Assembly: GCA_013791785.1 (NCBI GenBank)
Contig: VMTD01000047.1
Coordinates: forward strand, 1,704 to 65,703
Reading direction: 5' to 3'
Length of the DNA: 64,000 nucleotides
Origin: Methanobacteriota archaeon
GTDB taxonomy: Archaea; Thermoplasmatota; Thermoplasmata; SG8-5
Under the pieces are notes generated by a model. It was not told where the DNA came from, did not search any database, and worked only from the letters and a program-made list of their open reading frames with translations. The translations under genes and the position numbers were made by a program. This document shows, in pieces, positions 10,670 through 63,333 of this stretch (the stretch's first letter is position 1; each line of letters opens with the position of its first letter).

Positions 10670-10834
10670 TTACTGCATAAATGCTCGAGAAAGCCCAGCC
10701 TTGAGGGGCTGAGATGAATCGGCATAAGCAGTAAACTTCCAGCCCTAGCAACAAACGCCAGCCACTTTAGGGGCTGGTAGTTTACGGTATAAGCAGTAAA
10801 AACGTGATAGACCGCCGTGCACATATGCATGGCC
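10670..10834. repeat. interspersed mosaic repeat family A, copy A1 (modules: tactgca.aaatgc.gaga..gggctgagatgaatcgg / cttccagcc..gccagccactttaggggctggtagtttac / cgtgatagaccgccgtgc..atatgcatggcc)
   Basis: near-identical modules recur at 17871..18110, 21779..21950 (inverted), 30851..30957, 43901..44093, 49213..49264 and 58944..59070. Confidence 0.8.
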
Positions 10835-13666: not shown

Positions 13667-13737
13667 AACCTTGATGCACCAGTCCTGGCATGGGGTATGC
13701 TATTCATAAATAGTATAATCCCGCCAATCAATTGACG

Positions 13738-13852
13738 GTAAGAGTTCAGTATTTTGAAATTTTAGATTTTAGATCTTAGATTTTAGATATTTGCTGGCAG
13801 AATGTCGTCCGTCGTAAATCTACAATCGAAAATCTAAAATCTACAATCGTTA
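13738..13852. repeat. repeat family B, copy B1: inverted arms of tagattttagat(c)ttagattttagat and atctacaatcgaaaatctaaaatctacaatcg around a 28-nt spacer
   Basis: same arms plus the conserved leader taagagttcagt.tt.tgaaatttt recur at 32370..32630; a solo right arm sits at 28255..28315. Confidence 0.75.
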
Positions 13853-13913
13853 TTGGGTAATGTCCTCGATTGTACCGCATAACTAATATACTTGATGTTG
13901 CATATATGTTCTT

Positions 13914-14384
13914 ATGGCGAGACCACGAAGTGAAGTAAAAATTACGTGCCAGATTCCCACGTGCAAATATTATCTTAAAGAAGAAAAAAAGGACATCCTT
14001 AAAAGAGGCAAGAATAAAGCTGGCCATCAACAATATTATTGTAATCACTGCCACAAATGGTTCGTCGAAACAGCGAATACACCGTTATATCATAAACATC
14101 TGTCCGAGGAAGAAATCATCAATATATGCAAACATCTGGTTGAAAAGAATGGTTTACGTTCGATACAGCGTATAACAGGCCACCACCGAGATACGATTGG
14201 CCGTCTTGTAGTAGATCTTGCCGAGCACGCGGAAAGAGCAAATAATTTTCTGATACACAATGTAAAATTGACCCCCATAGAGTGCGATGAATTGTGGTCA
14301 TTTGTGAAAAAAAACAAAAGAAAGTTGAGCCCGGCAGCCCAGATAGCCATGAAGAAGGTGATGCTTGGGTCTACGCAAGCATAA
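13914..14384 (+). CDS. insA: IS1-type transposase N-terminal ORF (InsA-like; zinc finger + HTH)
   Basis: CQIPTCKYY...CNHCHKWF zinc-finger-like; HTH segment; ends just after ECDELWSFVKKNKRK, a hallmark IS1 motif. Confidence 0.7.
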   Translation: MARPRSEVKITCQIPTCKYYLKEEKKDILKRGKNKAGHQQYYCNHCHKWFVETANTPLYHKHLSEEEIINICKHLVEKNGLRSIQRITGHHRDTIGRLVVDLAEHAERANNFLIHNVKLTPIECDELWSFVKKNKRKLSPAAQIAMKKVMLGSTQA

Positions 14385-14905
14385 AACGAAACACATATTT
14401 TTGGCTCTCTTATTCTCTTGGTAAATGGACACAGGAAACGTGCCGTGAAATGATAGAACTCATGTATCACAGACTCGAATTGCCATTTCCGAGCAACAAA
14501 CTTGAAATCTATACCGACGGAAATGATGATTATACCTATGTTTTTCCAGAATATTATGCGAACACCTGTATCATTTACGGGCAGCTAATAAAAATCAAGA
14601 AAGGAGGTCGTCTGGTTAAAAAGATAAAACGACCGATATTTGGAGATCCACGACTGGAGGATATAGAAACAACCGAAATAGAGAATATGAATGGGATAAT
14701 GAGAGAGCGTCTTGGGCGGTTGGTTCGAAAAACTAAGTGTTTCAGCAAGGACATACAGATGCAATGGTGTGCCCTTCAGTTGTTTCAATTTCATTGGAAT
14801 TTCATGAATAGATTTCGGAGAGGAGCAACACCAGCGATGTTGGAAGGGCTGGCTGACGCGCCGTGGACATGGGAGAATTTTTTAACGACTCATTATGCGG
14901 TGTAA
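14294..14905 (+). CDS. insB: IS1-type transposase catalytic ORF (InsB-like), reached by a programmed -1 frameshift at gtgaaaaaaaac (~14303..14314)
   Basis: ORF is in the -1 frame relative to InsA and overlaps it by 91 nt; the A7 run precedes a DAWVYASIK... continuation typical of IS1 InsAB fusions. Confidence 0.65.
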   Translation: MVICEKKQKKVEPGSPDSHEEGDAWVYASIKRNTYFWLSYSLGKWTQETCREMIELMYHRLELPFPSNKLEIYTDGNDDYTYVFPEYYANTCIIYGQLIKIKKGGRLVKKIKRPIFGDPRLEDIETTEIENMNGIMRERLGRLVRKTKCFSKDIQMQWCALQLFQFHWNFMNRFRRGATPAMLEGLADAPWTWENFLTTHYAV

Positions 14906-14986
14906 ATTAGGACACTACCCGAAATTAATTTATACCTTGACAATCATATATTAATATATGGCATTCAGACAGGGGATTTTAGGAAA

Positions 14987-17808: not shown

Positions 17809-19039
17809 CTAAGACCCCATCCAACACGGACAATAAAAAGGTTTCGACGTTTGTCTCGTTGAAAGTTGTTTTACTGCACAAATGCCGAGAACGCTCAGTC
17901 CTTCAGGGCTGAGATGAATCGGCATGAACAGTAAAAACGTAGGAAACCGCCATGCACCGTGCAATTATTGGCAAATGAAATCAAAGCGCATTAGCTTTGA
18001 TAATTCAGGTGCATGGCCCCATAGGTAAACTTCCAGCCCAGAATCTTGTGACAATGGTTCCATACGTAAACGGCAGCTCATTTATGGGCTGATAGTTTAC
18101 AGAAAAAAGGGCGCTAACGGGTAGTGCTAGTGCTTTCCATCGGTCATCGGTTAAGGAAGAACCGTCTGTGGGGCTGTGGCAAACACACAGTACAGACAAG
18201 GGTTTTTACCCGTGATGTGCGCCTGCCCTGCTTTGACCGCCAAGGAAATAGTCACCAACCTCCTGTTCATTTTCTAATGAGCCAGAACCCTTAACCGATG
18301 ATACTGGATAAGCCATACTCTCCTTTCATCTGGATAGCGGCTCTCAATACATAGCCACGTGTGCTGTCGGGATATTCATTGATAACACGCCTACAATTCA
18401 AGCAAATGAGTGCTCCCCTGCGCAGGTATATACACACCGAATAACATGAAATTTGATTGCTCACAGAGTCATTCAGGACGATTTGAGTATATCCATGGCA
18501 TAGAATATCGAGGGGAGCCCTTTGTTTAAACAATTTCTCGCCACTGGAATAGCTTGAAAACGCCCGTATCCGCAGATTTAAAGTCGCGGTATATGGGCGA
18601 GAACATGTTTAATCAATGCCATTCCGATTCCTGGTGCCCGACAATATACTCCTACAACCCCACAACAACGCTTTTATCCAATGACCGCATTAATGATTAT
18701 GGTCAACTACTACTCGGAGCGGGAATAATCGAGGAGATAGCCTACTCGTTCTTTCTGAGCGGTAGTTGACCAACGATCTCCTCGGTTCCTTAAGCTGGGG
18801 AAAATGGAGTTCAGTATCAAGACCCATATGTCGTGTTCGGTCAGATATCAATAAAACTTCAAGTATGAATGACATAAAAATCCGGATTCTACAGAATGAT
18901 ATTGACGTGGAAAGTAATAAAAAGTTACACCTAAATTAGGGAGACAGATTCAAATGAATAATATATTTGACATCAATGGAGAGGCCCCCATGTGTAAATT
19001 ACCAGACCCTAAATCAGATAACATTCGCCGGGGTGAAAT

Positions 19040-21727: not shown

Positions 21728-22133
21728 CACTCCAGCATCTCTTTTGCCTTCCTCTTGCCAATTAATTGTTTTCATTGTGTAAACTACCAGCCCCTAAAGT
21801 GGCTGGCGTTTAGAGCAACGATACTCGTTGCGACTTAGCCGAACTTTGAGTTCGGCGATAATAGCCAGGCTGGAAGTTTACCTAGGAAGTCATATGCTGG
21901 TATATGCAAGGTGCATGGCAGGTCATGCACATGTGCACAGCGGTCTACCTTTCACCTATATTCGTGTAAATGGCCTTTCATCCCGGTTTAAAAGCCAGGG
22001 GGTTCCCGGCCATTATCACTAAAGATTGCGGTATTAGGACGAGGGCATGTTCAATCAAACAAGTTTTCACTCCTGATAACCGGGTCATTATGTTCATAAT
22101 CCTCTGCAAATATATCAGAAACTAGGTGAATGA

Positions 22134-22429: not shown

Positions 22430-22550
22430 AGCGGGAAGCATGAATCTATTATGTGGGCAATTCCTATCACGATAAACTCTTCCCCACTTTGAGCGGGGCA
22501 AATCTCTCTCCAACCTGGGCGTTATGCCCGAAGCCCCGCCCACCTTTTTT
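22430..22550 (+). repeat. repeat family C, copy C1 (gggaagcatgaatct.ttatgtgggcaattcctatcac ... GC hairpin + T-run); doubles as a + strand intrinsic terminator
   Basis: second copy at 27896..28012; hairpin gagcgggg..ccccgccc followed by accttttttt. Confidence 0.6.
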
Positions 22551-23950: not shown

Positions 23951-25090
23951 GTGATGTATATGAAAAGAACGACAATAGGAAACAAAAGATATCTTCCGGT
24001 GTTTTTCACCATGGCATTAATGCTAGCAGGCATGAGCGGATTAGTGAACGCGGCAGATGTGGCAACAAGCACGGATACGGCTGGCGGTCTGCAGGTTCAA
24101 GCAGACAATGTCGCTCCTGCGATAACGGGTTTTGAGATTGTGAATGCGGGTTATACTACAATATTAGATGCCCAGGTTGACGTTAATACGGAAATTACCG
24201 TAAATGTGACCATAGAGGACAACAACGGCTGGGACGATGTGGACACCATTCAGGTCATGTGCTGGTATGATGGTGGAAGCGAAGGATATTTCTCTGGTCA
24301 GACAACGGGTCATAATTACAGGGTATTGCTCTATTATGACAACACGGCTGCCGGAGGAAACGGGCAAACTGTTCCGACAACAGGAAACATGGATGCAAAA
24401 TATTCAACAACTGTTGACCATTCCACGGTAACAGATGGCACACATGCAGTAACTGAGGTCACGGCAAATCAGAAATACAAACTGACATGGAAGTTTACTC
24501 CCAGCTACCAGTTCAAGCAGGCAGACATACCTGCGGTTGCTGATGGAGTGGCATTTGCCAATGCCAACTCATGGAATGTGATGGTCAACGCTACGGATGC
24601 AGCTGCGACCACGAGCCAGAAGGATAGCGGTTCCGATGCTTACGAGTTCGGAATATACAAGTACACATATATTTCCAGTGCAAGCAATACATGGAACGTC
24701 GGAACTGTGGCACCAAACGCCAACTCTGATGCTACAGCGGCCAGTGTTACCACCAGGTCGAACGACGACATGGACCTAACCGTTTGGATAAATGGCGACC
24801 TGACCTGCGCAAGCCCCAGCGACACGATACCCACAAGCGGCTCTTATGTGAAAATCCTGGCTGCTGCAAGCGCAGCGGATGACATAGCCGGTGACCTGAC
24901 TTACACTGCGAACCTGGAGGCAGGCGAGAAAACAATCCTCGCCAATACTGGATACGGTGATCACAGCGCCTATATGGCGAGCAACAGTGCGCTGACAACG
25001 AGCGTGAACTTCAACATCGCAGTGCCCTATGGTACCTTGCCAGGGACATACACTGCTGTATTGACGTTCCAGGTTACTCAGGTAGCATAA
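23951..25090 (+). CDS. secreted Thr/Ala/Asn-rich surface protein, candidate major structural subunit of a surface layer or fibre
   Basis: signal peptide ending LVNA; low-complexity beta-rich composition; TATA tttttatatc ~50 nt upstream; strong terminator downstream. Confidence 0.65.
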   Translation: MMYMKRTTIGNKRYLPVFFTMALMLAGMSGLVNAADVATSTDTAGGLQVQADNVAPAITGFEIVNAGYTTILDAQVDVNTEITVNVTIEDNNGWDDVDTIQVMCWYDGGSEGYFSGQTTGHNYRVLLYYDNTAAGGNGQTVPTTGNMDAKYSTTVDHSTVTDGTHAVTEVTANQKYKLTWKFTPSYQFKQADIPAVADGVAFANANSWNVMVNATDAAATTSQKDSGSDAYEFGIYKYTYISSASNTWNVGTVAPNANSDATAASVTTRSNDDMDLTVWINGDLTCASPSDTIPTSGSYVKILAAASAADDIAGDLTYTANLEAGEKTILANTGYGDHSAYMASNSALTTSVNFNIAVPYGTLPGTYTAVLTFQVTQVA

Positions 25091-25107
25091 GAAAAACAAT
25101 CGAAAAT

Positions 25108-25150
25108 GGAGGAGTTTACTCCTCCTCCTTTTCCCTTTTCTTTCATTTTT
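25108..25150 (+). terminator. intrinsic terminator (ggaggagtttactcctcc hairpin + T-rich tract)
   Basis: perfect 7-bp stem with a 4-nt loop followed by ttttcccttttctttcatttttt. Confidence 0.6.
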
Positions 25151-25197
25151 TCAATTATCACATTTGATAATATTAACGATAGATATTATTCTCATAA

Positions 25198-26496
25198 ATG
25201 ATTTTTACAGGACAGGTAATAATCATGGCTAGAAAAAAATCAATATTGATATTGTGTACTATCATGCTAATCGCATTTTCTTTCCCATTATCCCAAATGA
25301 GTACAGCAACCGATGGAATCGAGAATGTGCAACTTCATATGCCAGTGGAATCTATTTTTTTCAATGACGCAAATCAAATGGTGATGATTACCGGTTTCTG
25401 GCACATATTGGAATTTGACGTTCCTTCTGCAATGGATGCATCTATGGAACTCACGAAAGGAATAGATAGGTATGAATGGACATACAATGAAGGAGCATGG
25501 AACGAGTTAGAACATAACTTGTTCATAGACCAGACGAAGTGTTCATTCAACGGGGAAAGGATATTGTTTTGGATAGCTGTTGACCAATCTGCCATACCTG
25601 GTATTTGGCATCTTGCCGTAAACGCAGGCGAACTGAAAAGTGAACAAGATATTGAATTACGGGAAAGAACAGGGGGTGTGGGATTTTCCACGGCGGATTT
25701 CCTCATCGCAGTACCTCCATATACCCAGATGCAAGTGGAGACTGCAGACACGGGGCAATATGCCAGAGTCCACAATGAGGATGTCGTACCGGTAAATGTG
25801 GATTTTTTCATTGATAATGATAATTGTATAATGATTCCGGGTGAACGTACGCTATCCCCGCTCTCAATGGGGGAGTACTCCCTTGTCTATTCCAGTAACC
25901 CTCTAACTTCCCAAAGACAGGAATTTGGGGGTGAGGTTCTGATTACATACAAATATGTTGGCCCGAGCATTGGGACCGCCCAGTTAATTCCCTCTTACAA
26001 CTATCCATTTGATATCATCATCTTTGTGGGAGACCCTGACCTCGAATTTGTGGAGGCCGATGAATACACTGTACAGTATGTAACCAGCGTCCGAATGGCT
26101 TCCAACGAGACCAGAACCTTCCCGTTGATATTAGACGGCCAGGGGGATATCGACCTTGACATAAATGGGATTGGCTGCACGGTTTCATCGATAGAATTGA
26201 ATGGTGTGGAGGTAGATATGCCGTACCATCTGGAACTGGCTGGTGACAGGTCCGAAACCTTCAACATAATGGTTGAACCAATAATAACCAGCGGCAATGC
26301 TTCTCTTGTGTACCAGATAAACGGTGACCAATACACCACCGTTATTGAGATTGACTCTACTGGCGAACTTCAGGAAAAAATAACAGAAAACTATAGTGGA
26401 TATCTGAACAAGGTTTTACCCCCGGCAGTAATTGGAGTTTTAATCGTTGGTATCCTCATGATGTTATACAAGAGGAGAAGGAGGGTGAAAAGCTGA
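25198..26496 (+). CDS. secreted surface protein with a C-terminal TM anchor + RRRR tail
   Basis: N-terminal signal peptide; C-terminal PPAVIGVLIVGILMMLYKRRRRVKS. Confidence 0.65.
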   Translation: MIFTGQVIIMARKKSILILCTIMLIAFSFPLSQMSTATDGIENVQLHMPVESIFFNDANQMVMITGFWHILEFDVPSAMDASMELTKGIDRYEWTYNEGAWNELEHNLFIDQTKCSFNGERILFWIAVDQSAIPGIWHLAVNAGELKSEQDIELRERTGGVGFSTADFLIAVPPYTQMQVETADTGQYARVHNEDVVPVNVDFFIDNDNCIMIPGERTLSPLSMGEYSLVYSSNPLTSQRQEFGGEVLITYKYVGPSIGTAQLIPSYNYPFDIIIFVGDPDLEFVEADEYTVQYVTSVRMASNETRTFPLILDGQGDIDLDINGIGCTVSSIELNGVEVDMPYHLELAGDRSETFNIMVEPIITSGNASLVYQINGDQYTTVIEIDSTGELQEKITENYSGYLNKVLPPAVIGVLIVGILMMLYKRRRRVKS

Positions 26497-26534
26497 GGTC
26501 TCCAGCTATTGTACTTGTATTCGTCGTAATACTG

Positions 26535-27089
26535 TTGGCAGGTACAACCAGCGTCATGGGGGACGATGGCGGCGTGCAGGTGGAAAATGTATATCCCACA
26601 TTCTCAAATCTGTCGGTGAGTGAAATTAACGGCAATACCCTGGTCACAATCAACGTTTCAGACTATAATTCATTTTGGGACATAGATAGAATATTCATAA
26701 ATGTGACAGATGGAAACGAAGGGGTCTTAAGCATTGCCTACTTTGCGAATAACACCCGTGATTCGCCAAACGGGCAGCTCAGGAACGTTATTGGAAACAA
26801 TCTGGTTTCAGAACTTTCTGGAATTAAACACAGCAATGAAAGCGAGGAATCGGAGAGTTGTTACCTTTTATTAGAAATATGCTTCACTCCTGTTGATGGA
26901 ACCTTCCTAAACGTGGTGGTATGGGATGTGGGTGGACTCTCTGCAACGTACACTGGGCAGTATGTATATCCCCCACTCGCCGGAAAGGCCAACATGAACA
27001 TAATAATCGGGGCGGTTGTGTTCTCTCTCATCCTAACGGTTTCGATTCAGATATTATTAAAACGGAGACACAAAAATGAGAATGTCTGA
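26535..27089 (+). CDS. secreted surface protein with a C-terminal TM anchor (TTG start)
   Basis: signal-like N-terminus; C-terminal NMNIIIGAVVFSLILTVSIQILLKRRHKNENV. Confidence 0.55.
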   Translation: MAGTTSVMGDDGGVQVENVYPTFSNLSVSEINGNTLVTINVSDYNSFWDIDRIFINVTDGNEGVLSIAYFANNTRDSPNGQLRNVIGNNLVSELSGIKHSNESEESESCYLLLEICFTPVDGTFLNVVVWDVGGLSATYTGQYVYPPLAGKANMNIIIGAVVFSLILTVSIQILLKRRHKNENV

Positions 27090-27675
27090 GAATATTCTCA
27101 ATCGAAGTATTCTGAACACCGTGTTACAGTCGTTCTGGCTATTTCTCTCAATCCTCCTCCTGTTTATATTAATTCTCCTAATATATGTTCCCGGTCTTAG
27201 TGCCCCGGCTGTTCTATTGTCCATGTCCCCCGATCATAGCGGCACAAATCAACCAGGCAGTATTTTTTTTGCTCTCTGTTTAGTTGCAACTATCACAGCC
27301 CTGCACTTTTTGGAGAATGACAAAGCAATTAAGCTGTCTATCATACTATCATTCATGATAATGATCATACTCGGAAACAATCTATTCAACACCAGCGTTC
27401 CGGTCCCCCTTCATTTTTATGGGCTCTTTTTTGCTGTGGCCTTGATGATTATTTTTGATGCGTTTATTGTATCAGAAATCATTGCTACACCATCAGATAC
27501 CAAAAGGAAAATTCCCATGTCGTCCGATTTATCCGAGCGGATTAGCGATTACCTCACAGAATCAAATACGGACGATAATTTGATGAGATATCTTGACAGC
27601 CTTGAAGGAATCCTTATTGAAAGCGATTTAGAGTTTGAATTAGAACGGATTATTCAATCCTACAATTCTCCTTAG
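27076..27675 (+). CDS. integral membrane protein (199 aa), last gene of the surface-protein operon
   Basis: four or five hydrophobic helices; overlaps the upstream gene by 14 nt. Confidence 0.55.
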   Translation: MRMSENILNRSILNTVLQSFWLFLSILLLFILILLIYVPGLSAPAVLLSMSPDHSGTNQPGSIFFALCLVATITALHFLENDKAIKLSIILSFMIMIILGNNLFNTSVPVPLHFYGLFFAVALMIIFDAFIVSEIIATPSDTKRKIPMSSDLSERISDYLTESNTDDNLMRYLDSLEGILIESDLEFELERIIQSYNSP

Positions 27676-27895: not shown

Positions 27896-28012
27896 CGGGA
27901 AGCATGAATCTGTTATGTGGGCAATTCCTATCACTATTATCTCTTCCCCACTAGGGCGAGGTCATTCTCTTTCCATAAGGGCTTAAGCCCAGGTCCTCGC
28001 CCCATTTTTTCC
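27896..28012 (+). repeat. repeat family C, copy C2, with terminator hairpin gggcgagg...cctcgcccc + T6
   Basis: 92% of the core is identical to 22436..22480; lies 220 nt downstream of the 27076..27675 gene. Confidence 0.6.
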
Positions 28013-28254
28013 CGCAAAATCATGCTTCCAGTTGTTTTTTATGATTTTGCGGAAATTCCAAAGACCCTGTGAATCATTAATGAAGATAGAACGTCGATTC
28101 ATGGCGAACGCTCATTATTGCATAGATTTAGTTTCCGCATTCACCGATTGCTTGCAAAATGATGGGAATTTATGGTGCTGGATTTAGTTTGTAATTGTTT
28201 CCGCATCATTGGCGAATGCGCCGTTTTCAAACGTTGCCAGCTGCATTCACCGCA

Positions 28255-28315
28255 CGTCGTAAATCTAAAATCTACAATCCCAAAATCGAAAATCGTTATA
28301 CATCTACAATCGACG
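28255..28315. repeat. repeat family B, solo right arm (copy B3)
   Basis: cgtcgtaaatctaaaatctacaatc..aaaatcgaaaatcgttata matches the right arms of B1/B2. Confidence 0.55.
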
Positions 28316-30580: not shown

Positions 30581-30961
30581 ATTTTTACCTCCCTTATTTT
30601 ATTCTGGAATTGATGATTTGACTAAACTTAGATTCCCCCATTGATGTTCAACTCTTTTAATCGTAAATGTCCTGACCATATTAACTAACTTTTTCAAAAT
30701 TGAGTACAGATGATGTACACATCTTTTACACATGTTCAAAATTCAAAATGCATTGTACGCATAGAAAACCATCATGCACCAGCTCTCGGATGCTGCTTTC
30801 CCGAGGATGTTGAAAAAACCTACGACAGGAGCTTCGAAAAGTTCGCTGTACATATGCCGAGAAAGCCCAGCCCTGGGGGGCTGAGATGAATCGGCATAAG
30901 CAGTAAACTTCCAGTCCTGGCAACAAACGCCAGCCACTTTAGGGGCTGGTAGTTTACGTAA

Positions 30962-32305
30962 TTAATCCTTAAAGGCCCTTGCACATTCACCCAGAGCCTC
31001 GCACAATGTCGGATGAGGGTGCATTAGCTTTGCCAGGTCCTTGACTGTCATTTTTTTCTCTATTGCCAGCAATGCCTCGCCAATAAGATTGGACGACTCA
31101 TGGCCAACTATGTGGACACCCAATATCTGGCCGTTTTCTGCTGCCACGATTTTTACAAAGCCGCGTGTGTCATTCATGGCCAGTGCCTTACCAAGGGCTG
31201 CGAAATAATAACGTTTCACAATGGTACCTGGAATTCCTTTAGCCTCGGTTTCAGTCATGCCCACACTCGCAACCTCCGGGTCCGAATAGACCACATACGG
31301 TGTGAGCATCGAATAATCGGATTCTATTCCCATGATGGTATCAGCGACCATAAGCCCGTCCTGGGTGGCCTTGTGGGCCAGCTGTGCGCCTCCGATAACA
31401 TCACCGATTGCGAAAATTCCCGGTTGGGATGTCCCCATTTTTTCGTTAACGCGGATAAATCCCGCCTCATCAATTTCAATGCCAGCATCCTTCAATCCTA
31501 GGCCTTCTATGTTGGCCTTCCTTCCCACTGCAATCAATATTTTATCGAATGCCAGTGAATCTTCCGGGCAGGTATTTATGTGGACCTGCAATCCACCTGG
31601 TCCTGTTTCACCGCAGGTGGCCATCGAATTGACATGAATGCTTATGCCCAGTTCTTTCAAACTCCTGACTACAGCCCTCGAAACATCATCATCGGTGTTT
31701 GGCAGAATCTTGGCCAGCGCCTCAACCACAGTGACCTTTGAACCGAGTTTTGCCAGGAATGTGGCCATCTCAACTCCGATAGCACCGCCGCCGATTATGC
31801 ATATGCTCAGAGGCACTTCTGTCATGGCCAGTATATCCTCGTTGCTCAAAATTCTGGAATGGTCGAAAGTGAATCCAGGAATACTCCGGGGTACTGAGCC
31901 AGTGGCCAGTATGATATTTTCAGCTGAAAATTCTATGCCAGTGTCAAGTTTACCCCTTTTTCCGGGCATGAGGCTCGCCCTCCCAGAAATATATTCCACA
32001 CCTGCTTTCTTGCAACCAGCCAGTATATTGTCGATTGTCTTTTGGATAATGCCGTATTTCCATTCCTGGAATTTTACCAAATCTATTTTGGATGAGCAAG
32101 TTATTCCAATCTTTTCGTTTTCCTTGTTATAATACTGGCTTGCCATGTAGAGGAAGGCTTTTGAAGGTATGCAACCCGAATTCAAGCATACTCCTCCAGC
32201 TTTTTCGCTTTCAATGAGAATGACCTTTTTGCCGTGCTTGCTCAAACTCAAAGCAGCGGCGTATCCACCGGAACCTGCACCGATTACTATGACATCAGCT
32301 TCCAA
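30962..32305 (-). CDS. lpdA: dihydrolipoamide dehydrogenase-type FAD/NAD(P) disulfide oxidoreductase (TTG start)
   Basis: GAGSGG FAD motif; redox-active disulfide GGVCLNSGCIPSK; dimerisation-domain HPHPTLCEALGE; RBS aggagg 6 nt upstream of TTG. Confidence 0.8.
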   Translation of the reverse strand: MEADVIVIGAGSGGYAAALSLSKHGKKVILIESEKAGGVCLNSGCIPSKAFLYMASQYYNKENEKIGITCSSKIDLVKFQEWKYGIIQKTIDNILAGCKKAGVEYISGRASLMPGKRGKLDTGIEFSAENIILATGSVPRSIPGFTFDHSRILSNEDILAMTEVPLSICIIGGGAIGVEMATFLAKLGSKVTVVEALAKILPNTDDDVSRAVVRSLKELGISIHVNSMATCGETGPGGLQVHINTCPEDSLAFDKILIAVGRKANIEGLGLKDAGIEIDEAGFIRVNEKMGTSQPGIFAIGDVIGGAQLAHKATQDGLMVADTIMGIESDYSMLTPYVVYSDPEVASVGMTETEAKGIPGTIVKRYYFAALGKALAMNDTRGFVKIVAAENGQILGVHIVGHESSNLIGEALLAIEKKMTVKDLAKLMHPHPTLCEALGECARAFKD

Positions 32306-32369
32306 TCATTGCCTCCTAGCGATTTGTCAAATAGAGAAGGCTCAATGCATATATATTTGACGCCCCACC

Positions 32370-32630
32370 GTAAGAGTTCAGTCTTCTGAAATTTTAGATT
32401 TTAGATCTTAGATTTTAGATTTGTGCTGGGAATATGCTGTTTTGTCAATCTTTTTTAGTGATAAGTGATAAATGAAAAACTGAGTATTTTTGTCCTTGAG
32501 AGCCGATTCATTCATCATTTACCTCCCAACGTCACTTTTCACTATTCACTTTACACTTTTCACTAATCACTTCGGCCAGTCAATCCGTCGTAAATCTACA
32601 ATCGTCAATCTACAATCTACAATCGTTATC
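32370..32630. repeat. repeat family B, copy B2, with an expanded AT-rich ~150-bp core carrying nested inverted repeats (agtgataagtgataaatgaaaa / ttttcactattcactt...)
   Basis: left arm/leader ccgtaagagttcagtcttctgaaattttagattttagatcttagattttagat and right arm cgtcgtaaatctacaatcgtcaatctacaatctacaatcg. Confidence 0.7.
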
Positions 32631-32973
32631 GTTTCACTGAATACTAACACCCCATCTTCAGTTTGACCTATGTGAAAACAAGTTAAAATATTTCTATCAT
32701 TAAATAGTTAAACGTCATTCATCGGTCATATGATAGTCCTCGAGGACGATTTCAACCTGCGCCTTCTGAGGCATCCGGCCTCCGGAAACGCTGTCAGAGT
32801 AAACATCAACTCGCTGGCAAAGGACCTGGGCATGCACAGGACCGCGACCGGACAGTTCATATTGAAAATACCTGGATTACCCTATCCTAATTAGCTGAAT
32901 TACTGTTGACCAAATCACATATATACATGAAAAAGATACCTCGTGCCATCCCTCAAAGGGGGCATTAATTAAC

Positions 32974-33468: not shown

Positions 33469-33881
33469 TACATCTAAAACTCAAGTGCCACCATTGTGGA
33501 GAAAGCCTGATGGACCCAGATTTCGAGATTGACGACCATCCCAGTGTGAGAATTATTGTTGCATCTAATGGAGAAAAAGGAATATTACGCTTGAGCTCAC
33601 TCTATGGAAGTCACAAAAAAGATTCTGAATTAGATGTCCAAGAGGGAGAAATTGTTCGAATATTTTGTCCACATTGCAATGTCGATATGAAGAGTAGCAG
33701 GTTTTGTTATGAGTGCAAGGCACCCATGATCACATTTGAATCTCTTCTGGGTGGATATATTCGAGTATGCTCACGATGGGGTTGCAAGAAACAACTTGCA
33801 GAGTTTGAGAATTTGGAAACAGAGCTTAGGGCATTTCATGCGAAATATTCTCTCTCTCCTCAAGGGAGGGGGGAAAAATGA
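33465..33881 (+). CDS. double zinc-ribbon (4x CxxC) small protein translationally coupled between the hoxE-like and hoxF-like genes
   Basis: CHHCGE...CPHCNV...CYECKAP...CSRWGC; ATGA overlaps at both ends. Confidence 0.6.
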   Translation: MIHLKLKCHHCGESLMDPDFEIDDHPSVRIIVASNGEKGILRLSSLYGSHKKDSELDVQEGEIVRIFCPHCNVDMKSSRFCYECKAPMITFESLLGGYIRVCSRWGCKKQLAEFENLETELRAFHAKYSLSPQGRGEK

Positions 33882-36800
33882 CAGCAGAATTCAAAAATAA
33901 TGATGATATAAATAAATTAAGAAACATAATCAATAAGAAAAAAGATTCAAACAAGACATTTATTACAATGTGCTCTGGAACGGGATGCTTGGCTTCCGGC
34001 AGTGGAAAAGTTACTGAAGCCTTTAGAAATTCGTTTAAAAAAATGAATCTTGAAAGCAAGGTCGAGGTTAAAACAACTGGCTGTCATGGTTTTTGTGAAC
34101 ATGGCCCCCTTATCGTGATCCGCCCTTCTGGTATATTTTATCATAAAGTAACACCAGAGGATGTGGATGAAATCATTTCGGAAACTATTCTCAAATCCAA
34201 AGTAGTCGACCGTTTGTTATATGTCAATCCATCAACAGGGGAAAAAATCATTTATGAAAAAGACGTTCCATTTTATAATAAACAAATGAGAATCCTTTTT
34301 GGTAAAAATGGCATCCTTGACCCCACTAGTATCGAAGAATATATCGGTCTGGGTGGTTATTCCGCTTCAGAAAAGGTATTTTCCCGAATGTCATCAGATG
34401 AGATTATTGACGAAGTAAAAAAATCAGGCCTTAGAGGTAGAGGTGGTGCAGGATTTCCAACTGGTTTTAAATGGGATTTCTGTAAAAAAGCAAAGGGCGA
34501 TATGAAATACATTGTATGCAATGCTGATGAAGGAGACCCTGGCGCATACATGAATAGAAGCTTGTTGGAAGGAAATCCACACAGCGTTCTGGAAGGAATG
34601 TTAATCGGTGCATTTGCCATTGGTGCATCCGAAGGCATCATTTACATTAGACATGAATATCCGTTAGCAGTAAAAACAATTGAAAACGCCATGGATCAGA
34701 TGCGAAAATATGGCTTGCTTGGTAATAATATATTAGGATCAGGTTTTAATTTTGACATAAGGATTGTTCCTGGCGCCGGTGCATTTGTTTGTGGTGAAGA
34801 AACAGCACTTATCGCATCAATAGAGGGGAAAAAAGGAGAGCCCAGACAGAGGCCACCTTTCCCAGCTCAAAAAGGAATCTTTGGCAAACCCACGAACATA
34901 AACAATGTTGAAACATGGGCAAATATACCATTAATCATCAACAATGGTGCAGAGTGGTTCACTAATATTGGAGTTGAGGGAGCCAATGGCACAAAAATAT
35001 TTTCTTTGGTTGGAAAAATAAACAACACAGGCTTGGTAGAAGTTCCATTGGGTACCACAATAAGGGAAATGGTATATGATATTGGTGGTGGAATACCCAA
35101 GGGCAAAAAGTTCAAAGCAATACAAACCGGAGGTCCTTCTGGAGGGTGCATACCTGAGAACTTGCTTTCAACACCAATTGATTATGTAAAACTAGCTCAA
35201 GCCGGTTCAATAATGGGTTCCGGCGGTCTTGTAGTAATGGATGAAGATACCTGCATGGTAGATGTGGCAAAATATTTCCTTGGATTTCTTCAGGAGGAAT
35301 CCTGTGGCAAGTGCCTCACATGTAGAGAAGGAATAGAGAGGTTATTGGAAATTGTAACTGATATTACTGAAGGCAAAGGCAAAATGAGTGATATCAATTT
35401 ATTGGAAGAGCTTGGCAATGTTGTTAAAGATGCTTCAATGTGCGGACTTGGCCAAACAGCCCCCAATTCAGTACTTTCGACATTGAGATACTTTATGGAT
35501 GAATATGAACAGCACATCAAATACAAAAGATGCCCTGCTGTAGTCTGTAAGGAAATTATATCCTCGCCATGCCAACATGTTTGTCCGATAGATACAGAAG
35601 CACCTTTGTACATCTCTCTGATAGCCGAAGGACGGTATGAAGAGGCCTTCAATGTTATTATGAAAGATAATCCTCTCCCATCAGTCTGTGCCAGAGTATG
35701 TAGCCATCCCTGCGAGACAAAATGCCAGGCAGGCAAATTCAGCGATCCTATTTCTATCAGAGGACTAAAGAGATTTGTAACTGATTATGCCCAGAAGAAT
35801 GATTTGAAATACTTGCCTGAAAAACAAGAAACAAAGAAAGAAAAGATTGCGATCATCGGTTCAGGACCCGCTGGATTGATTGCGGGCTACTACCTTGGAA
35901 TGAATGGATACCAGACTACGATTTTTGAATCCTTGCCAGTTCATGGTGGCGCATTGTCAGTATGCATTCCCGAGTACAGATTGCCCCAGGCTATACTTGA
36001 ACATGACATTAAAAATATTACAAACATGGGTGTGGAAATAAAATACAATGTTACGGTAGGCAAGGACATTTCATTTGAAGAACTGCGAAAAACCTACCAG
36101 GCAATATTTATTGCGACAGGCGCACGCAAGTCCATTAAATTGGGCATACCCAATGAGGATGCTGATGGGGTACTTTATTCCATGGACTTCCTAAGAGATA
36201 TGGCTCTCGGAAAAAAGATCAATGTCGGTTCACGAATAGGCATTATTGGGGGCGGAAATGCTGCGGTGGATGCAGCCAGGATGGCCAGCCGTATTTCAAG
36301 TATCGAAGAGGCCTCGTTCAATGCTATGATAGATACAGCCGGAATGGCCAGCCGCCTTACGGATTTTGAAGAAGCCACATTGATATACCGGAGAACCAAA
36401 TCCGAAATGCCTGCCTTCGAAGAAGAAATAAAAGCATGCCTGGATGAACGTGTCAAGATGCAGTTCCTTACTGCACCTAAAAGAATATTGGTCAAGGATG
36501 GAAAAATCACTGGATTAGAATGCCTAAAAATGGAATTGGGAGAACGGGACGATTCTGGCAGAAAGAGACCCATCCCCATCGAGGGCTCTGAATTCATAAT
36601 TGAATTGGACACATTGATTATCGCAATCGGTGAACGGCCGGACCTTTCCTTTTTAGATGAAATAGAAGGATTCGAGGTCAATAAGGGAGACACTATCAAA
36701 GTTGACACAGAACTCTACACAACAGGGATAGATGGTGTTTTTGCAGGTGGTGACGTGGTAACTGGCCCGAATACAGTGATTGAGGCCATGGGATCTGGAA

Positions 36801-37099
36801 AGGTAGTAGCTGGATTGATAGATAAATACCTTAAAGGAGAGCCTGTAGAACGAAAATACGAAGTTACCAGACCATCAATGTTCGTGAAACCTGTTGAATT
36901 AACCGAAGAAGAAGTAGCAGAGGCAAGGCGGCCCCTAATGCGATGCACTCCCATAGAAAACAGAACATGCTCCCTTGACGAAGTGGATTTGGGACTATCT
37001 GAGGAAAATGCGATAAAAGAGGCTAGACGTTGCTTGAGATGCGATCTGGAAACTGAGGAAGGAAAGAAACAATTTGAACCGGCAGAGGAAGTGGCATAA
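33878..37099 (+). CDS. NuoF/HoxF-like (NADH/FMN/4Fe-4S) fused to a GltD/NfnB-like FAD/NAD(P)H domain (1073 aa)
   Basis: N-terminal 2Fe-2S Trx-like (CSGTGC..CHGFCEHGP); GLRGRGGAGFPTGFKWDF; ESCGKCLTCREG; ferredoxin Cys clusters; then GSGPAGLIAGYYL... and GGGNAAVDAAR dinucleotide motifs. Confidence 0.85.
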   Translation: MTAEFKNNDDINKLRNIINKKKDSNKTFITMCSGTGCLASGSGKVTEAFRNSFKKMNLESKVEVKTTGCHGFCEHGPLIVIRPSGIFYHKVTPEDVDEIISETILKSKVVDRLLYVNPSTGEKIIYEKDVPFYNKQMRILFGKNGILDPTSIEEYIGLGGYSASEKVFSRMSSDEIIDEVKKSGLRGRGGAGFPTGFKWDFCKKAKGDMKYIVCNADEGDPGAYMNRSLLEGNPHSVLEGMLIGAFAIGASEGIIYIRHEYPLAVKTIENAMDQMRKYGLLGNNILGSGFNFDIRIVPGAGAFVCGEETALIASIEGKKGEPRQRPPFPAQKGIFGKPTNINNVETWANIPLIINNGAEWFTNIGVEGANGTKIFSLVGKINNTGLVEVPLGTTIREMVYDIGGGIPKGKKFKAIQTGGPSGGCIPENLLSTPIDYVKLAQAGSIMGSGGLVVMDEDTCMVDVAKYFLGFLQEESCGKCLTCREGIERLLEIVTDITEGKGKMSDINLLEELGNVVKDASMCGLGQTAPNSVLSTLRYFMDEYEQHIKYKRCPAVVCKEIISSPCQHVCPIDTEAPLYISLIAEGRYEEAFNVIMKDNPLPSVCARVCSHPCETKCQAGKFSDPISIRGLKRFVTDYAQKNDLKYLPEKQETKKEKIAIIGSGPAGLIAGYYLGMNGYQTTIFESLPVHGGALSVCIPEYRLPQAILEHDIKNITNMGVEIKYNVTVGKDISFEELRKTYQAIFIATGARKSIKLGIPNEDADGVLYSMDFLRDMALGKKINVGSRIGIIGGGNAAVDAARMASRISSIEEASFNAMIDTAGMASRLTDFEEATLIYRRTKSEMPAFEEEIKACLDERVKMQFLTAPKRILVKDGKITGLECLKMELGERDDSGRKRPIPIEGSEFIIELDTLIIAIGERPDLSFLDEIEGFEVNKGDTIKVDTELYTTGIDGVFAGGDVVTGPNTVIEAMGSGKVVAGLIDKYLKGEPVERKYEVTRPSMFVKPVELTEEEVAEARRPLMRCTPIENRTCSLDEVDLGLSEENAIKEARRCLRCDLETEEGKKQFEPAEEVA

Positions 37100-43817: not shown

Positions 43818-43900
43818 GATATCGTCAATGATTTACAATATATATGTTTTTATCTTATCTTGGATTCAATCTTCGAGTGCTATTTCTGACTGAATTATAA

Positions 43901-44093
43901 CGTGATAGACCGCCGTGCTTATATGCATGACCTGCCATGCATCGTGTTCATATGCATGACCTGCCATGCATCGTGTACATATACCTGCATATGAAATCAA
44001 AGCTTGTGAGTTTTGATAATTAGGTGCATGGCCCCTCAGGTAAACTTCCAGCCATGGCAACAAACGCCAGCCACTTTACGGGCTGGTAGTTTA
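43901..44093. repeat. repeat family A, copy A5, including a 2x ~29-bp tandem repeat (atatgcatgacctgccatgcatcgtgt)
   Basis: modules cgtgatagaccgccgtgc, gaaatcaaagc...gtgcatggcc and cttccagcc...gccagccactttacgggctggtagtttat. Confidence 0.7.
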
Positions 44094-44289
44094 TGCAATT
44101 CACTATAAAATTACAATGTTTTTGTGATGAGACACCCTAACCAAAGAAAAAGAAAAAAATAGAGGGAGTAATCGTGATAGTACACAATTCTCAGCGCAGT
44201 ATATACCACCTTTCCCGAAATTCTCGATTATGATAATGATGCCTGTCGAACCGGGCTTCACCGGGGTACCGGCCCTACCAACCCAGCGG

Positions 44290-49082: not shown

Positions 49083-49275
49083 GATTTTACCTCCCATATT
49101 CACAATTTTGCGCTATGATATGCATCAATGTATATGATGGAGGGTTGAAGTTAGACACAATATATAAATTTTTATATCTCATTATTCAGATATAAATTTA
49201 ACATTGATATATTACTGCACAAATGCCGAGAACGCTCAGTCCTTCAGGGCTGAGATGAATCGGGGAGCACTCATC

Positions 49276-50334
49276 CTATTCTCCCCTTTCCCTTTCTATC
49301 AGGGCCAATTTTCTCTCTTTTATTACACCAAGACATACCTTCTGCTGGTCGATCGTGGCAGTTACTCTCGGTGACAAGTAGGTCTTTTTCATTGCCCCGA
49401 AACACTCATCTGGGAATATTTCATGCAGATGTTCTTCCCATTTAAAATGCTCCTCAACGTTGGGGAAAGTACCAAAATACAACAAATTATATCTTCCTGA
49501 GTGGCCACGATAAGCTATGGGGATGCTGCAGTGATTTTTTATGTATTCATATATTCGTTCTTTGCACTTATTTAGTCTGACAAAACAAAATACAAGTACG
49601 TAATCTGGTGGAACGAAGAACCTGGGAAATCGACACAATGGTCTTGAAATGATCCCCTCCTCCTTGAATTTTTCTATTCGCCGTTCAATCGTTCTCCTGT
49701 GAGTGTTTAATTTATTTGCTAAAAGGTGCTCATTGGTTTTGATTGCCTCTCCCCGAAGTAATTTTTTTAATATTTTGAAGCCGAGTTCCTTTATTTTATA
49801 TCCATTGATCACCAGTTCATTATTTTCTTTAAATGCTTTTTCCAGACAATAAATGCTTGAATTCGGATCATATTTGATACGAAGTTTATTATCTAAGAAT
49901 AGGACATCAGCAGGAAACCTGTTCTCCAACGGAGGTAAAATATTATCACTCACCAATCGTTCCTTCCATGTATAATAGGAAGACATATCCTTATGAAATT
50001 CGAATAATAATGTATTATAACCTTCGTCCCATGATCTAAAAGAAGCGAAGATAGATTCATCTTCGAGAAGGAACTTTTCCACCTGCTCTGTTTTTGGAAG
50101 ATCTGCTTTAACGACTGCAAAAAGAGGCCGTTCGTTAAATACTTCAGTAAAAGGATAATAGGGGCCAACAATAATATTATTCTGATAAAGTTCGTCGACC
50201 TGGGTCTTGATTGTGTTCCTATGTTTATCCAAACTTTTTGAAAGGGCGCTAATATTAACACTCACTCCATTTCCTGACACTATGTTCTCCAATATCTCAA
50301 GGTTTAACTTGTCGTTTAGCAAATCAGTCATCAA
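49276..50334 (-). CDS. putative transcriptional regulator with two winged-HTH-like segments, transcribed divergently from the hybrid hydrogenase operon
   Basis: LEILENIVSGNGVSVNISALSKSLDKHRNTIKTQVDEL and ELGFKILKKLLRGEAIKTNEHLLANKLNTHRRTIERRIEKFKEEGII HTH-like stretches; 215-bp AT-rich divergent intergenic region. Confidence 0.5.
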   Translation of the reverse strand: MMTDLLNDKLNLEILENIVSGNGVSVNISALSKSLDKHRNTIKTQVDELYQNNIIVGPYYPFTEVFNERPLFAVVKADLPKTEQVEKFLLEDESIFASFRSWDEGYNTLLFEFHKDMSSYYTWKERLVSDNILPPLENRFPADVLFLDNKLRIKYDPNSSIYCLEKAFKENNELVINGYKIKELGFKILKKLLRGEAIKTNEHLLANKLNTHRRTIERRIEKFKEEGIISRPLCRFPRFFVPPDYVLVFCFVRLNKCKERIYEYIKNHCSIPIAYRGHSGRYNLLYFGTFPNVEEHFKWEEHLHEIFPDECFGAMKKTYLSPRVTATIDQQKVCLGVIKERKLALIERERGE

Positions 50335-57923: not shown

Positions 57924-58341
57924 AGAATTTTAACTCTATTTTTCTACGTAACGTCACCGGAATTATGAATAGTAGCCATTAGAATACACTGCAAGAATAA
58001 CATTCAATAATTGTCTTCCATCAGAATTCCCTGTTCAACATATCATTTAGCATTTTTAACATAAAATATGGGTATTAATATAAATTATTGGCTGTTTCAA
58101 GTTATAAATTTAAAATAAATGAATGAAAATCATGATAAGAAACACACACAATGTCATACACATTTTTAAATGGCCAGTGATATAAGTGGTACTATTTCAC
58201 ACAGTAAAATGGCATATTCATCATTTATTGTTGATAATAGTGTAATTCCATTCTAAATAGAAATATCACCTATACTATTCATGAAAGCAAATAAGATCGA
58301 AGATGGTGAAAGATACGATAAAATAAAAAGGAGGTAGAAAA

Positions 58342-58905: not shown

Positions 58906-58943
58906 ACAAAAGGAAGATCGCCATGCACTGTGCAGATATTTCC

Positions 58944-63282: not shown

Positions 63283-63333
63283 AAGAAACAGAATGGAAGG
63301 GGTAAAGTACCTCTTCCCCTTTTCATTTTATTC

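What the first reader, a model, noticed from the sequence alone, without database searches (positions are those of the whole stretch)
13738..13852. Repeat family B: long imperfect hairpin elements built from tagattttagat / atctaaaatcta 12-mers (three loci), one abutting an IS1 element
B1 (13738..13852) and B2 (32370..32630) share a conserved leader (taagagttcagt.tt.tgaaatttt) and inverted arms of tandem 12-mers. B3 (28255..28315) is a solo arm. B1 ends exactly where the IS1 left inverted repeat begins (13855), so the family may be a preferred insertion target, or the IS may have transposed into it. Possible roles are MITEs, recombination or partition sites, protein-binding iterons, or hairpin RNAs.
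Basis: seen in the sequence. Interest (0 to 1): 0.55.

Follow-up and report, generated by a model that had tools for sequence, protein, structure and literature searches.

The report
Promoter-adjacent miniature transposon of an archaeon
The three repeats are copies of a small non-coding jumping-DNA element (a MITE) in an uncultured Thermoplasmata archaeon; its arms are built of 7-base repeats, it nearly always sits exactly 14 bases upstream of a gene's TATA box, and one window copy was later split by an IS1 insertion.

Summary

- **Structure:** full copies (119-485 bp) have terminal inverted repeats GTAAGAGTTCAGT…ACTGAATACTTAC, a left arm (TAGATTT)n, a conserved core, and a right arm (AATCTAC)n.
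- **Mobility:** 22 of 30 complete copies have 8-bp target-site duplications. A related genome holds at least 31 copies.
- **B1:** it is a whole 140-bp element split by IS1, which made its own 8-bp duplication (CGTTATTG). The missing 22 bp lie on another contig, next to the ribosomal protein S17e gene. Relatives have that site empty.
- **B2:** a complete copy carrying a second heptamer hairpin module.
- **B3:** an arm fragment.
- **Mobiliser:** GTAAG… ends plus 8-bp duplications match the IS66 family, but no transposase was found.

The unexpected result is the target. In 23 of 30 copies, and in B1 and B2, an A/T heptamer (TTTATAT-type TATA box preceded by AA) lies exactly 14 bp from an element end. 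It points away from the element, at the normal distance from the neighbouring gene's start codon. The element therefore lands just upstream of archaeal core promoters. How it finds them is unknown.

The parts
13738..13855 (+). B1, left 118 bp of a 140-bp element. Left terminal repeat 13738-13762, (TAGATNT)4 13763-13790, core 13791-13816, right arm 13817-13849. The last 8 bp, CGTTATTG (13848-13855), are the site duplicated by IS1.
   Evidence: The missing 22 bp (CTTCATTTCGCTGAATACATAC) follow IS1 on L132/L133.
13856..14919 (+). IS1-family insertion sequence (1064 bp) inserted into B1. Ends GGTAATGTCC…GGACACTACC, with two frameshifted transposase ORFs (13914-14384 and 14294-14905).
   Evidence: 28-nt inverted repeats. 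NCBIfam IS1 transposase E = 8.5e-17 and Pfam DDE_Tnp_IS1. 8-bp duplications pair up across contigs.
32370..32648 (+). B2, a complete 279-bp copy. Left terminal repeat 32370-32394, (TAGATNT)4 32395-32422, right arm 32586-32625, right terminal repeat 32626-32648.
   Evidence: It is 95% identical to a copy at an unrelated locus of a related genome (L103).
32451..32578 (+). Second heptamer hairpin module (C) inside B2: (AGTGATA)2 … (TCACTNT)6, bracketed by the 7-bp direct repeat GTCAATC (32444-32450 and 32579-32585).
   Evidence: In every copy seen, this module lies inside a B frame.
32362..32369 (.). Left copy of B2's target-site duplication (GCCCCACC). The right copy, ACCCCATC, is at 32649-32656 (6 of 8 bases match).
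32349..32355 (-). TATA box (ATATATA) of the minus-strand dihydrolipoamide-dehydrogenase-like gene (TTG start at 32305, GGAGG 6 nt upstream of it), 14 bp from B2's left end.
   Evidence: Same position (-21..-15) as in the family-wide profile.
28255..28312 (+). B3, a right-arm fragment only (CGTCGTAAATCTAAAATCTAC…), with no terminal repeats. It is embedded in another repeat family (D, 28011-28253).
   Evidence: The same D-plus-arm junction is present in a Thermoplasmata MAG (L023).

Best explanation
Family B is a non-autonomous DNA transposon (MITE) of an uncultured Thermoplasmata archaeon.

**Shown**
- It has imperfect terminal inverted repeats (GTAAGAGTTCAGTnTTCTGAAATTT … TTTCACTGAATACTTAC).
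- It makes 8-bp target-site duplications.
- It has no coding capacity and occurs in dozens of dispersed copies.
- Variants carrying extra nested modules have themselves spread to new loci.

**Inferred**
- It is cut and pasted in trans by a DDE transposase. The most likely family is IS66, whose hallmarks are ends starting GTAAG and 8-bp duplications.
- The heptamer arrays are subterminal repeats in inverted orientation. They are most simply multiple transposase-binding sites that expand and shrink by replication slippage.

**Target (shown as a pattern; mechanism unknown)**
- The staggered 8-bp cut is placed 6 bp upstream of the AA (BRE-like) bases and the TTTATAT TATA box of a host promoter that reads away from the element.
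- The element end therefore lies exactly 14 bp from the TATA box, on either end of the element.
- This could come from direct reading of that sequence, or from docking onto DNA bent and bound by TBP/TFB.

**Window copies**
- B1 landed upstream of the ribosomal protein S17e promoter and was later split by IS1.
- B2 landed upstream of a dihydrolipoamide-dehydrogenase-like gene.
- B3 is debris.
For: **Copies and ends**
- One metagenome (Ga0180732) holds 31 left-end matches on long contigs.
- Its coding DNA is 85% identical to the window, while its B copies are up to 95% identical.

**Target-site duplications**
- Among 30 complete copies the 8-bp duplication is perfect in 10, has one mismatch in 7 and two mismatches in 5.
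- The chance probability is below 1e-36.

**Empty site**
- Relatives L130/L131 have the cupin gene, a 95-nt spacer and the S17e gene with no B. The promoter is conserved there.
- B1's right end and that promoter are found on L132/L133.

**Target motif**
- An all-A/T heptamer at -21..-15 is present on the left flank in 17 of 30 copies, on the right in 8 and on either side in 23. The background rate is 1.6% per position, and the peak at that offset is sharp (P = 7e-29).
- Position-specific bases: T at -20 in 22 of 30, A at -19 in 23, A at -15 in 24, T at -11 in 20.
- In about two-thirds of copies a gene reading away from the element starts 35-70 nt from its end.
- A gap of 44 nt puts the A/T heptamer at -30 from the ATG. 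That is the peak (-32..-28) found for 137 ordinary upstream regions of the same genomes, whose consensus is A-rich followed by TTTATATA.

**Other points**
- IS66 hallmarks (inverted repeat starting GTAAGCG, 8-bp direct repeats) come from PMC11946415.
- No RNA family matched.
- There was no match in plasmid or phage collections.
Against: - No autonomous partner or any IS66-type transposase was found in about 0.4 Mb of fetched DNA from these genomes. The IS66 assignment rests on two end features only.
- The seventh-base motif differs from the IS66 one (GTAAGAG against GTAAGCG).
- B1's own 8-bp duplication is not recognisable (AATTGACG against CGTTCAAG, 3 of 8). Instead a 7-bp direct repeat GCCAATC lies 7-8 nt further out, and the bases in between are inverted repeats of each other. 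This is unexplained.
- Eight of 30 copies have poor duplications.
- Seven of 30 copies lack the A/T heptamer at the fixed distance.
- Most of the family evidence comes from a related genome, not from the window organism.
- No transcription or binding data exist. A host function for the arrays is therefore not excluded.
Confidence: 0.85

Rival explanations
1. The heptamer arrays are host regulatory DNA: iterons or an upstream activating or repressing site bound by a host protein. The element persists next to promoters because it modulates them, so the transposon is merely the vehicle or has been domesticated.
For: - Copies lie immediately upstream of core promoters, where archaeal regulators act.
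- The constant core GATT/AATC at 7-bp spacing looks like repeated binding sites.
- Similar (GATTNNN)n foldbacks occur in unrelated bacteria.
Against: - Either end of the element can face the promoter (17 against 8, not different from 1:1).
- Unit numbers vary from 0 to 11 on the left and 2 to 9 on the right.
- Some copies have the left array replaced by other modules.
- The neighbouring genes have no common theme: ribosomal protein, dehydrogenase, HMG-CoA reductase, ABC transporter.
- Selection alone would not give 1-bp precision of spacing.
Confidence: 0.15
2. The TATA adjacency is not a targeting mechanism. It is a survivorship effect: insertion is random or merely A/T-biased, and only copies in harmless intergenic spots survive.
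For: - The genomes are compact, so most non-coding DNA is promoter or terminator.
- IS1, an unrelated element, also sits in A/T-rich promoter DNA at 3 of 3 sites.
Against: - The motif sits at one offset, with a peak of 17 copies at -21 against 0-2 at most other offsets.
- It shows base-specific positions, not just A/T richness.
- Survivorship would give a broad distribution across spacers.
Confidence: 0.08
3. The elements are genes or signals for structured RNA (small RNA, hairpin terminator, processing site).
For: - Full copies fold better than shuffled sequence (median z = -3.2).
- MITE transcripts commonly form stem-loops (review PMC10969869).
Against: - No Rfam family matched.
- The arms carry a systematic T:C mismatch every 7 nt.
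- Left and right arm lengths do not co-vary (Spearman -0.25, P = 0.21).
- The adjacent promoters point away from the element.
- Fold z-scores for the window copies are weak.
Confidence: 0.05
4. The family is mobilised by the resident IS1 elements, which also make 8-bp duplications, rather than by an IS66-type transposase.
For: - IS1 is active in this genome: three copies with clean 8-bp duplications.
- It is physically associated with B copies.
- Both ends contain GTAA (IS1: GGTAATG…).
Against: - Beyond GTAA the ends match at only 5 of 12 positions.
- From my memory of ISfinder, IS1-family ends follow GGnnnTG, which B does not.
- IS1 sites show no 14-bp TATA spacing.
Confidence: 0.07
5. The loci are independent simple-sequence expansions or a local duplication, not a dispersed family.
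For: Plain (TTAGATN)n tandem arrays arise repeatedly: 59 viral contigs carry them, and none is in a hairpin arrangement.
Against: - The non-repetitive ends and core are conserved.
- Target-site duplications are present.
- There are at least 31 copies with unrelated flanks.
- An empty orthologous site exists.
Confidence: 0.01

Closest known systems
IS66-family insertion sequences and MITEs derived from them
   Same: The ends begin GTAAG, and 8-bp target duplications are made (hallmarks as stated in PMC11946415).
   Different: No transposase partner was found. The seventh-base motif is GTAAGAG, not GTAAGCG. Heptamer arrays and a promoter-linked target are not described for IS66, to my knowledge.
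Foldback-type elements and MITEs with subterminal repeats or internal minisatellites (Drosophila FB, Ac/Ds and En/Spm subterminal motifs; the P. gingivalis MITE with a minisatellite, PMC4596501)
   Same: Long imperfect inverted arms are built from short tandem units whose number varies between copies. There is no coding capacity.
   Different: Those are eukaryotic or bacterial elements. Here the unit is a 7-mer, the host is an archaeon, and several different heptamers (TAGATTT, AGTGAAA, GGGAATC) are nested in one frame.
Heptamer tandem repeats of cyanobacteria, Beggiatoaceae and Bacteroidetes (STRR; TAACTGA repeats, PMC4679880)
   Same: The period is 7, the location is intergenic, and the same heptamer occurs in distant phyla.
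   Different: Those are mostly direct arrays just upstream of start codons, with no terminal repeats or target duplications reported. B arrays are inverted arms inside a bounded transposon.
Promoter-tethered integration in eukaryotes (yeast Ty3 at TFIIIB, which is TBP plus the TFIIB-like factor Brf1; Ty1; S. pombe Tf1) — from my own knowledge
   Same: Integration occurs at a fixed, bp-precise position relative to a TBP-bound promoter, which gives a safe haven in a compact genome.
   Different: Those are retroelements with shown protein tethers. Here the element is a DNA transposon, the position is upstream of BRE/TATA, and no tether has been shown.
Known archaeal MITEs (Sulfolobus SM elements, Halobacterium, Haloquadratum; listed in PMC10969869)
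   Same: They are small non-autonomous elements with terminal repeats and duplications in archaeal intergenic DNA.
   Different: In the sources read, none is reported with heptamer arms or a TATA-linked target. The host is an uncultured Thermoplasmata lineage.

Membership tests
MITE (non-autonomous DNA transposon) | Terminal inverted repeats | tested here: met
   GTAAGAGTTCAGT… against …ACTGAATACTTAC in 30 copies. B2 has both ends. B1's right end was recovered on L132/L133.
MITE (non-autonomous DNA transposon) | Target-site duplication of fixed length | tested here: met
   8 bp, with 2 or fewer mismatches in 22 of 30 copies (P < 1e-36). B2 matches at 6 of 8. B1 is not clean (3 of 8).
MITE (non-autonomous DNA transposon) | Small size, no coding capacity, many dispersed copies | tested here: met
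   119-485 bp. At least 31 copies on 2.1 Mb of contigs in one related genome. Short-read contigs break inside the arrays.
MITE (non-autonomous DNA transposon) | Presence/absence at orthologous sites | tested here: met
   The cupin-to-S17e spacer is empty in relatives L130/L131 and filled in the window lineage.
MITE (non-autonomous DNA transposon) | An autonomous partner with the same ends in the same or related genomes | tested here: not met
   No repeated transposase ORF and no 0.6-5 kb GTAAG…CTTAC pair was found in the fetched loci. Only about 0.4 Mb was sampled, so this is weak negative evidence.
IS66 family (as source or mobiliser) | Inverted repeats starting GTAAGCG (GTAA) | tested here: met
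   The ends are GTAAGAG, matching 6 of 7. Hallmark taken from PMC11946415.
IS66 family (as source or mobiliser) | 8-bp direct repeats at the insertion site | tested here: met
IS66 family (as source or mobiliser) | DDE transposase TnpC (with or without TnpA/TnpB) encoded by a full-length relative | tested here: inconclusive
   None was seen in the window or in the fetched loci.
IS1 family (as mobiliser) | Ends of the type GGnnnTG that match the resident IS1 | tested here: not met
   IS1 ends are GGTAATGTCCTCG…. The B ends share only GTAA with them.
Simple heptamer tandem repeats (STRR / long simple sequence repeats) | Uninterrupted direct arrays without bounded ends | tested here: not met
   The arrays are two inverted arms inside a unit with conserved ends and core. 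Plain arrays in viruses lack the inverted partner.
Any curated RNA family (Rfam 15) | Covariance-model match at the gathering score | tested here: not met
   There were 0 matches in the whole window and no tRNA or tmRNA.

The most novel reading that the evidence does not exclude
The B-family transposition complex reads the archaeal pre-initiation complex rather than naked DNA. It docks on TBP/TFB-bound, bent promoter DNA and integrates at the upstream edge of the BRE, 14 bp from the TATA box. This would be an archaeal, DNA-transposon counterpart of Ty3 targeting by TFIIIB (TBP plus Brf1). The A/T-rich heptamer arms could then act as weak mimics of the target. That would explain why related small elements are found nested at a fixed spot inside B copies.
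Probability: 0.2. Interest if true: 0.85.

Novelty: new variant of a known kind. Interest (0 to 1): 0.6.

Why it matters
As a MITE, the element is ordinary. Three points go beyond that.

1. It shows bp-precise placement of a transposon relative to archaeal BRE/TATA elements. I found no report of this for archaea in the papers searched. It gives a simple sequence-level assay for how a mobile element finds promoters in a compact genome: direct readout or a TBP/TFB tether.
2. Each copy marks a promoter. The family is therefore a free promoter annotation for an uncultured lineage, and a possible source of promoter rewiring.
3. The heptamer-armed design, with several different heptamers nested in one frame, links to the long-unexplained heptamer repeats of cyanobacteria, Beggiatoaceae and Bacteroidetes. 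It suggests that some of those may also be parts of mobile elements.

On the practical side, the elements and IS1 break or mis-join short-read assemblies of this organism, including this window.

Tried and rejected
- **Host identity.** I first assumed a Methanoperedens host from the MAG accession series. The ABCE1 search shows Thermoplasmata instead.
- **Promoter direction.** I first read the TATA motif as a promoter firing into the element. The BRE-like AA, the gene context and the genome-wide promoter control show it points away.
- **Genome-collection scan.** It showed only look-alike foldbacks in other phyla.
- **Viral scans.** There was no B end, and only plain tandem arrays.
- **Autonomous partner.** All-against-all ORF comparison and a GTAAG…CTTAC pair search found none.
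- **Empty site for B2.** The only close ortholog (77%) has different neighbours.
- **Orthologous empty sites for the Ga0180732 copies.** Only one 574-bp overlap with the window exists.
- **L096.** It looked like a full-length element but is a truncated B end next to repeat family D and a proteasome-ATPase gene.
- **Other collections and tools.** Plasmid and phage collections gave no match. The sigma-70 promoter and terminator scan was not used, because the host is an archaeon.

Full report
**What is in the window**

The repeat period, however, is 7 rather than 12.

- Tandem Repeats Finder reports period-7 arrays at 13759-13788, 13816-13848, 28261-28294, 32391-32422 and 32593-32625. It also finds a different heptamer (TCACTTT) at 32532-32572.
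- B1 and B2 share 70 nt at 89% identity at the left and 46 nt at 93% at the right. The arms are inverted, 30 nt at 87% complementarity.
- No Rfam family and no tRNA lies in the window.

**Host**

- The window encodes ABCE1/RLI, a marker of archaea and eukaryotes.
- The identical protein is labelled 'Euryarchaeota archaeon'. Its nearest relatives, at 82-87% identity, are labelled 'Thermoplasmata archaeon'.
- The same DNA is present in MAGs GCA_018899285.1 and GCA_018900055.1 and in several other assemblies. Short-read contigs end inside the heptamer arrays, as expected for a multicopy repeat.

**The family**

A metagenome scan with the left end (TAAGAGTTCAGTNNNNNGAAATTT) returned 41 loci. Of these, 31 lie on long contigs of one metagenome, Ga0180732. 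That organism is a relative: its coding DNA is 85% identical to the window, and it shares the other repeat families seen here.

Its copies show the full anatomy, in this order:

1. Left terminal repeat GTAAGAGTTCAGTnTTCTGAAATTT.
2. Left arm (TAGATTT)n.
3. Core …TGCTGGGAATATGCAACGCCGTCAATCCGTCGTAA.
4. Right arm (ATCTACA)n.
5. …CGTTATTGCTTCATTTCACTGAATACTTAC at the right end.

Thirty complete copies measure 119-485 bp. Their 8-bp flanks are direct repeats. They are perfect in 10 copies, have one mismatch in 7 and two mismatches in 5. The chance probability is below 1e-36. Terminal inverted repeats, a fixed-length target duplication, small size, no ORF and many dispersed copies define a MITE.

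**B1 and IS1**

IS1 (13856-14919) has 27-28-nt inverted ends and two frameshifted IS1-transposase ORFs.

- B1 stops at …CAATCGTTATTG, 22 bp short of the family's right end.
- Relatives have the gene order ABCE1, cupin, ribosomal protein S17e, ABC transporter.
- I fetched the window organism's copy of that ABC transporter. Its contigs begin inside IS1 and read GGACACTACC | CGTTATTG | CTTCATTTCGCTGAATACATAC | CGTTCAAGCCAATCTATAAATAC…ATG(S17e).
- IS1 therefore inserted into B1 and duplicated CGTTATTG. B1 is a normal 140-bp copy sitting between the cupin gene and the S17e gene.
- Relatives L130/L131 have that spacer empty, with the promoter conserved.
- Pairing the 8-bp duplications across four contigs gives three IS1 copies. 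Every assembled contig, the window included, joins non-matching flanks.
- DNA to the right of 14919 is therefore probably not adjacent to B1 in the genome.
- B1's own duplication is unclear (AATTGACG against CGTTCAAG). A 7-bp direct repeat, GCCAATC, lies 7-8 nt further out. I cannot explain this.

**B2 and B3**

B2 is complete and has a 6-of-8 duplication (GCCCCACC / ACCCCATC). It carries a 128-bp second hairpin module, (AGTGATA)n…(TCACTNT)n, bracketed by GTCAATC.

- In every copy seen, that module lies inside a B frame.
- Such composites occur at several unrelated loci, and one is 95% identical to B2. Composite elements have therefore kept moving.
- A third heptamer type (GGGAATC) and a 196-bp element with ends GTAAGTGGTCAATC… and 8-bp duplications are also found nested in B copies.

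B3 is a right-arm fragment embedded in another repeat family.

**Likely mobiliser**

- IS66-family elements have inverted repeats starting GTAAGCG and make 8-bp direct repeats (PMC11946415). B has GTAAGAG ends and 8-bp duplications.
- The resident IS1 also makes 8-bp duplications, but its ends (GGTAATGTCC…) share only GTAA with B.
- No transposase with B ends was found in the fetched DNA.
- The IS66 link is therefore an inference from two features.

**The target site**

Aligning the flanks on the element ends shows a position-specific motif:

- A at -21.
- T at -20 (22 of 30 copies).
- A at -19 (23 of 30).
- A at -17.
- A at -15 (24 of 30).
- T at -12 and -11 (16 and 20 of 30).

An all-A/T heptamer at -21..-15 is present on the left flank in 17 of 30 copies. 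It is present, mirrored, on the right in 8, and on either side in 23. The background is 1.6% per position, and the peak at that offset is sharp (P = 7e-29). The ratio of left to right (17:8) does not differ from 1:1.

Read away from the element, the motif is AA-N2-TTTATAT. In 137 ordinary upstream regions of the same genomes, A/T heptamers peak at -32..-28 from the ATG. The oriented consensus there is an A-rich stretch followed by TTTATATA, so most promoters are leaderless.

In about two-thirds of B copies a gene reading away from the element starts 35-70 nt from the element end. The common gap of 44 nt places the heptamer at -30 from the ATG, which is the genomic norm.

Both window copies fit this pattern:

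- **B2.** Its left end is 14 bp from ATATATA (32349-32355). That heptamer lies 44 nt upstream of the TTG start (32305) of the minus-strand dehydrogenase-like gene, which is preceded by GGAGG.
- **B1.** Its right end is 14 bp from TATAAAT of the S17e promoter. That TATA box is also present in relatives that lack B1.

The TATA box therefore belongs to the host and predates the insertion. The 8-bp staggered cut falls 6 bp upstream of it, at the upstream edge of the BRE.

**How it probably works**

- **Shown:** the family is mobile, makes 8-bp duplications and is placed at a fixed distance from BRE/TATA.
- **Inferred:** a DDE transposase supplied in trans binds the ends. The heptamer arrays are subterminal repeats in inverted orientation, plausibly multiple binding sites.

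Several observations argue against a selected hairpin:

- Unit numbers vary from 0 to 11 on the left and from 2 to 9 on the right, without correlation.
- The arms carry a T:C mismatch every 7 nt (TTAGATT against AATCTAC).
- Folding is only moderately better than for shuffled sequence.

Whether the target is read as sequence or through TBP/TFB-bent DNA cannot be decided here. A mirrored motif on either end fits a symmetric transposition complex that needs one promoter half-site.

**Context**

- Heptamer tandem repeats of unknown function are known in cyanobacteria, Beggiatoaceae and Bacteroidetes (PMC4679880).
- My genome scan, although cut at 13 rows, found (GATTNNN)n foldbacks in a gammaproteobacterial MAG (three contigs), a Flavobacteriaceae strain and two Algoriphagus species.
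- Viruses carry only plain (TTAGATN)n arrays.
- Reviews and a census of prokaryotic MITEs that I read do not mention heptamer-armed or TATA-linked archaeal MITEs.
- There is no match in the plasmid or phage collections.

**Verdict**

The finding is a real repeat family and is a MITE, which is a known kind. IS1 jumped into one copy. The unusual features are the heptamer-built arms, shared by several nested module types, and the bp-precise placement just upstream of archaeal core promoters. I rate it a new variant of a known kind, with moderate to good interest.

Noticed in passing
window 13856-14919 (IS1) and both sides of it; L132-L136: The window is probably mis-joined, or recombined, at IS1. 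Pairing the 8-bp duplications (CGTTATTG, GGATAAAA, CGAAATTA) across four contigs gives three IS1 copies, and every contig joins non-matching flanks. By that pairing, DNA right of 14919 (ArsR/PAS genes) belongs with the left flank seen on L136.
   Followed up: yes
L134/L135 (same organism), IS1 copy 2: One IS1 copy inserted into the TATA-like GGATAAAA upstream of an HMG-CoA reductase gene, 15 bp from a reversed B copy, and duplicated that motif.
   Followed up: partly
window 10674-10822, 17874-18106, 21771-21947, 30846-30963, 43883-44100, 49215-49276, 58929-59076: A second dispersed repeat family (A) with G+C-rich hairpins (…AACGCCAGCCACTTTAGGGGCTGGTAGTTTAC…). It is also found nested inside B copies of the related genome (L099, L104) and in a more distant relative (L128).
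   Followed up: no
window 28011-28253; L107 1138-1380; L122 6450-6658; L096; L023: A repeat family D of about 240 bp (…GCGGAAATTCC…GATTCATGGCGAACGCTC…CTGCATTCACCG) abuts B3 and a truncated B end in L096. The same D-plus-arm junction is in a Thermoplasmata MAG from the genome collection.
   Followed up: partly
L001, L095, L101, L104, L119 (nested in B); L117 257-453 (free copy): A 196-bp MITE (E) has ends GTAAGTGGTCAATCTTCAGAAG, similar to the B ends, and 8-bp duplications (perfect GATTCGTC in L117). It is probably moved by the same kind of transposase.
   Followed up: partly
L011, L014, L019 (Gammaproteobacteria MAG CAYVCS01); L015 (Flavobacteriaceae R38); L017, L022 (Algoriphagus): Hairpins built from (GATTTTA/GATTTAC)n arms with a …CGTCGTAAATCTAAAATC junction occur in unrelated bacteria, without GTAAG ends. 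Whether these arose by convergence or share an origin with B is unknown.
   Followed up: no
L117 6035-6319: A third heptamer hairpin type, (GGGAATC)n…(GATTCCC), is nested inside the C module, which is itself inside a B frame. That makes three layers of heptamer foldbacks.
   Followed up: no
window 22432-22488 and 27896-27952: 57-nt direct repeats (93% identical) bracket about 5.4 kb. That stretch contains four ORFs (23951-27675) with no Pfam or NCBIfam match, and could be a mobile island.
   Followed up: no
window 33878-37099 vs 52789-55944; 56637-57924 vs 61996-63283: Paralogous gene clusters (NuoF/GltD-like fusion and its neighbours) are duplicated within the window at 71-76% DNA identity.
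   Followed up: no
window 13730-13737 and L133 after the B1 right end: B1 lacks a clean 8-bp duplication. Instead GCCAATC is repeated 7-8 nt outside both canonical ends, and the intervening bases (TTGACG / CGTTCAA) are inverted repeats of each other.
   Followed up: partly
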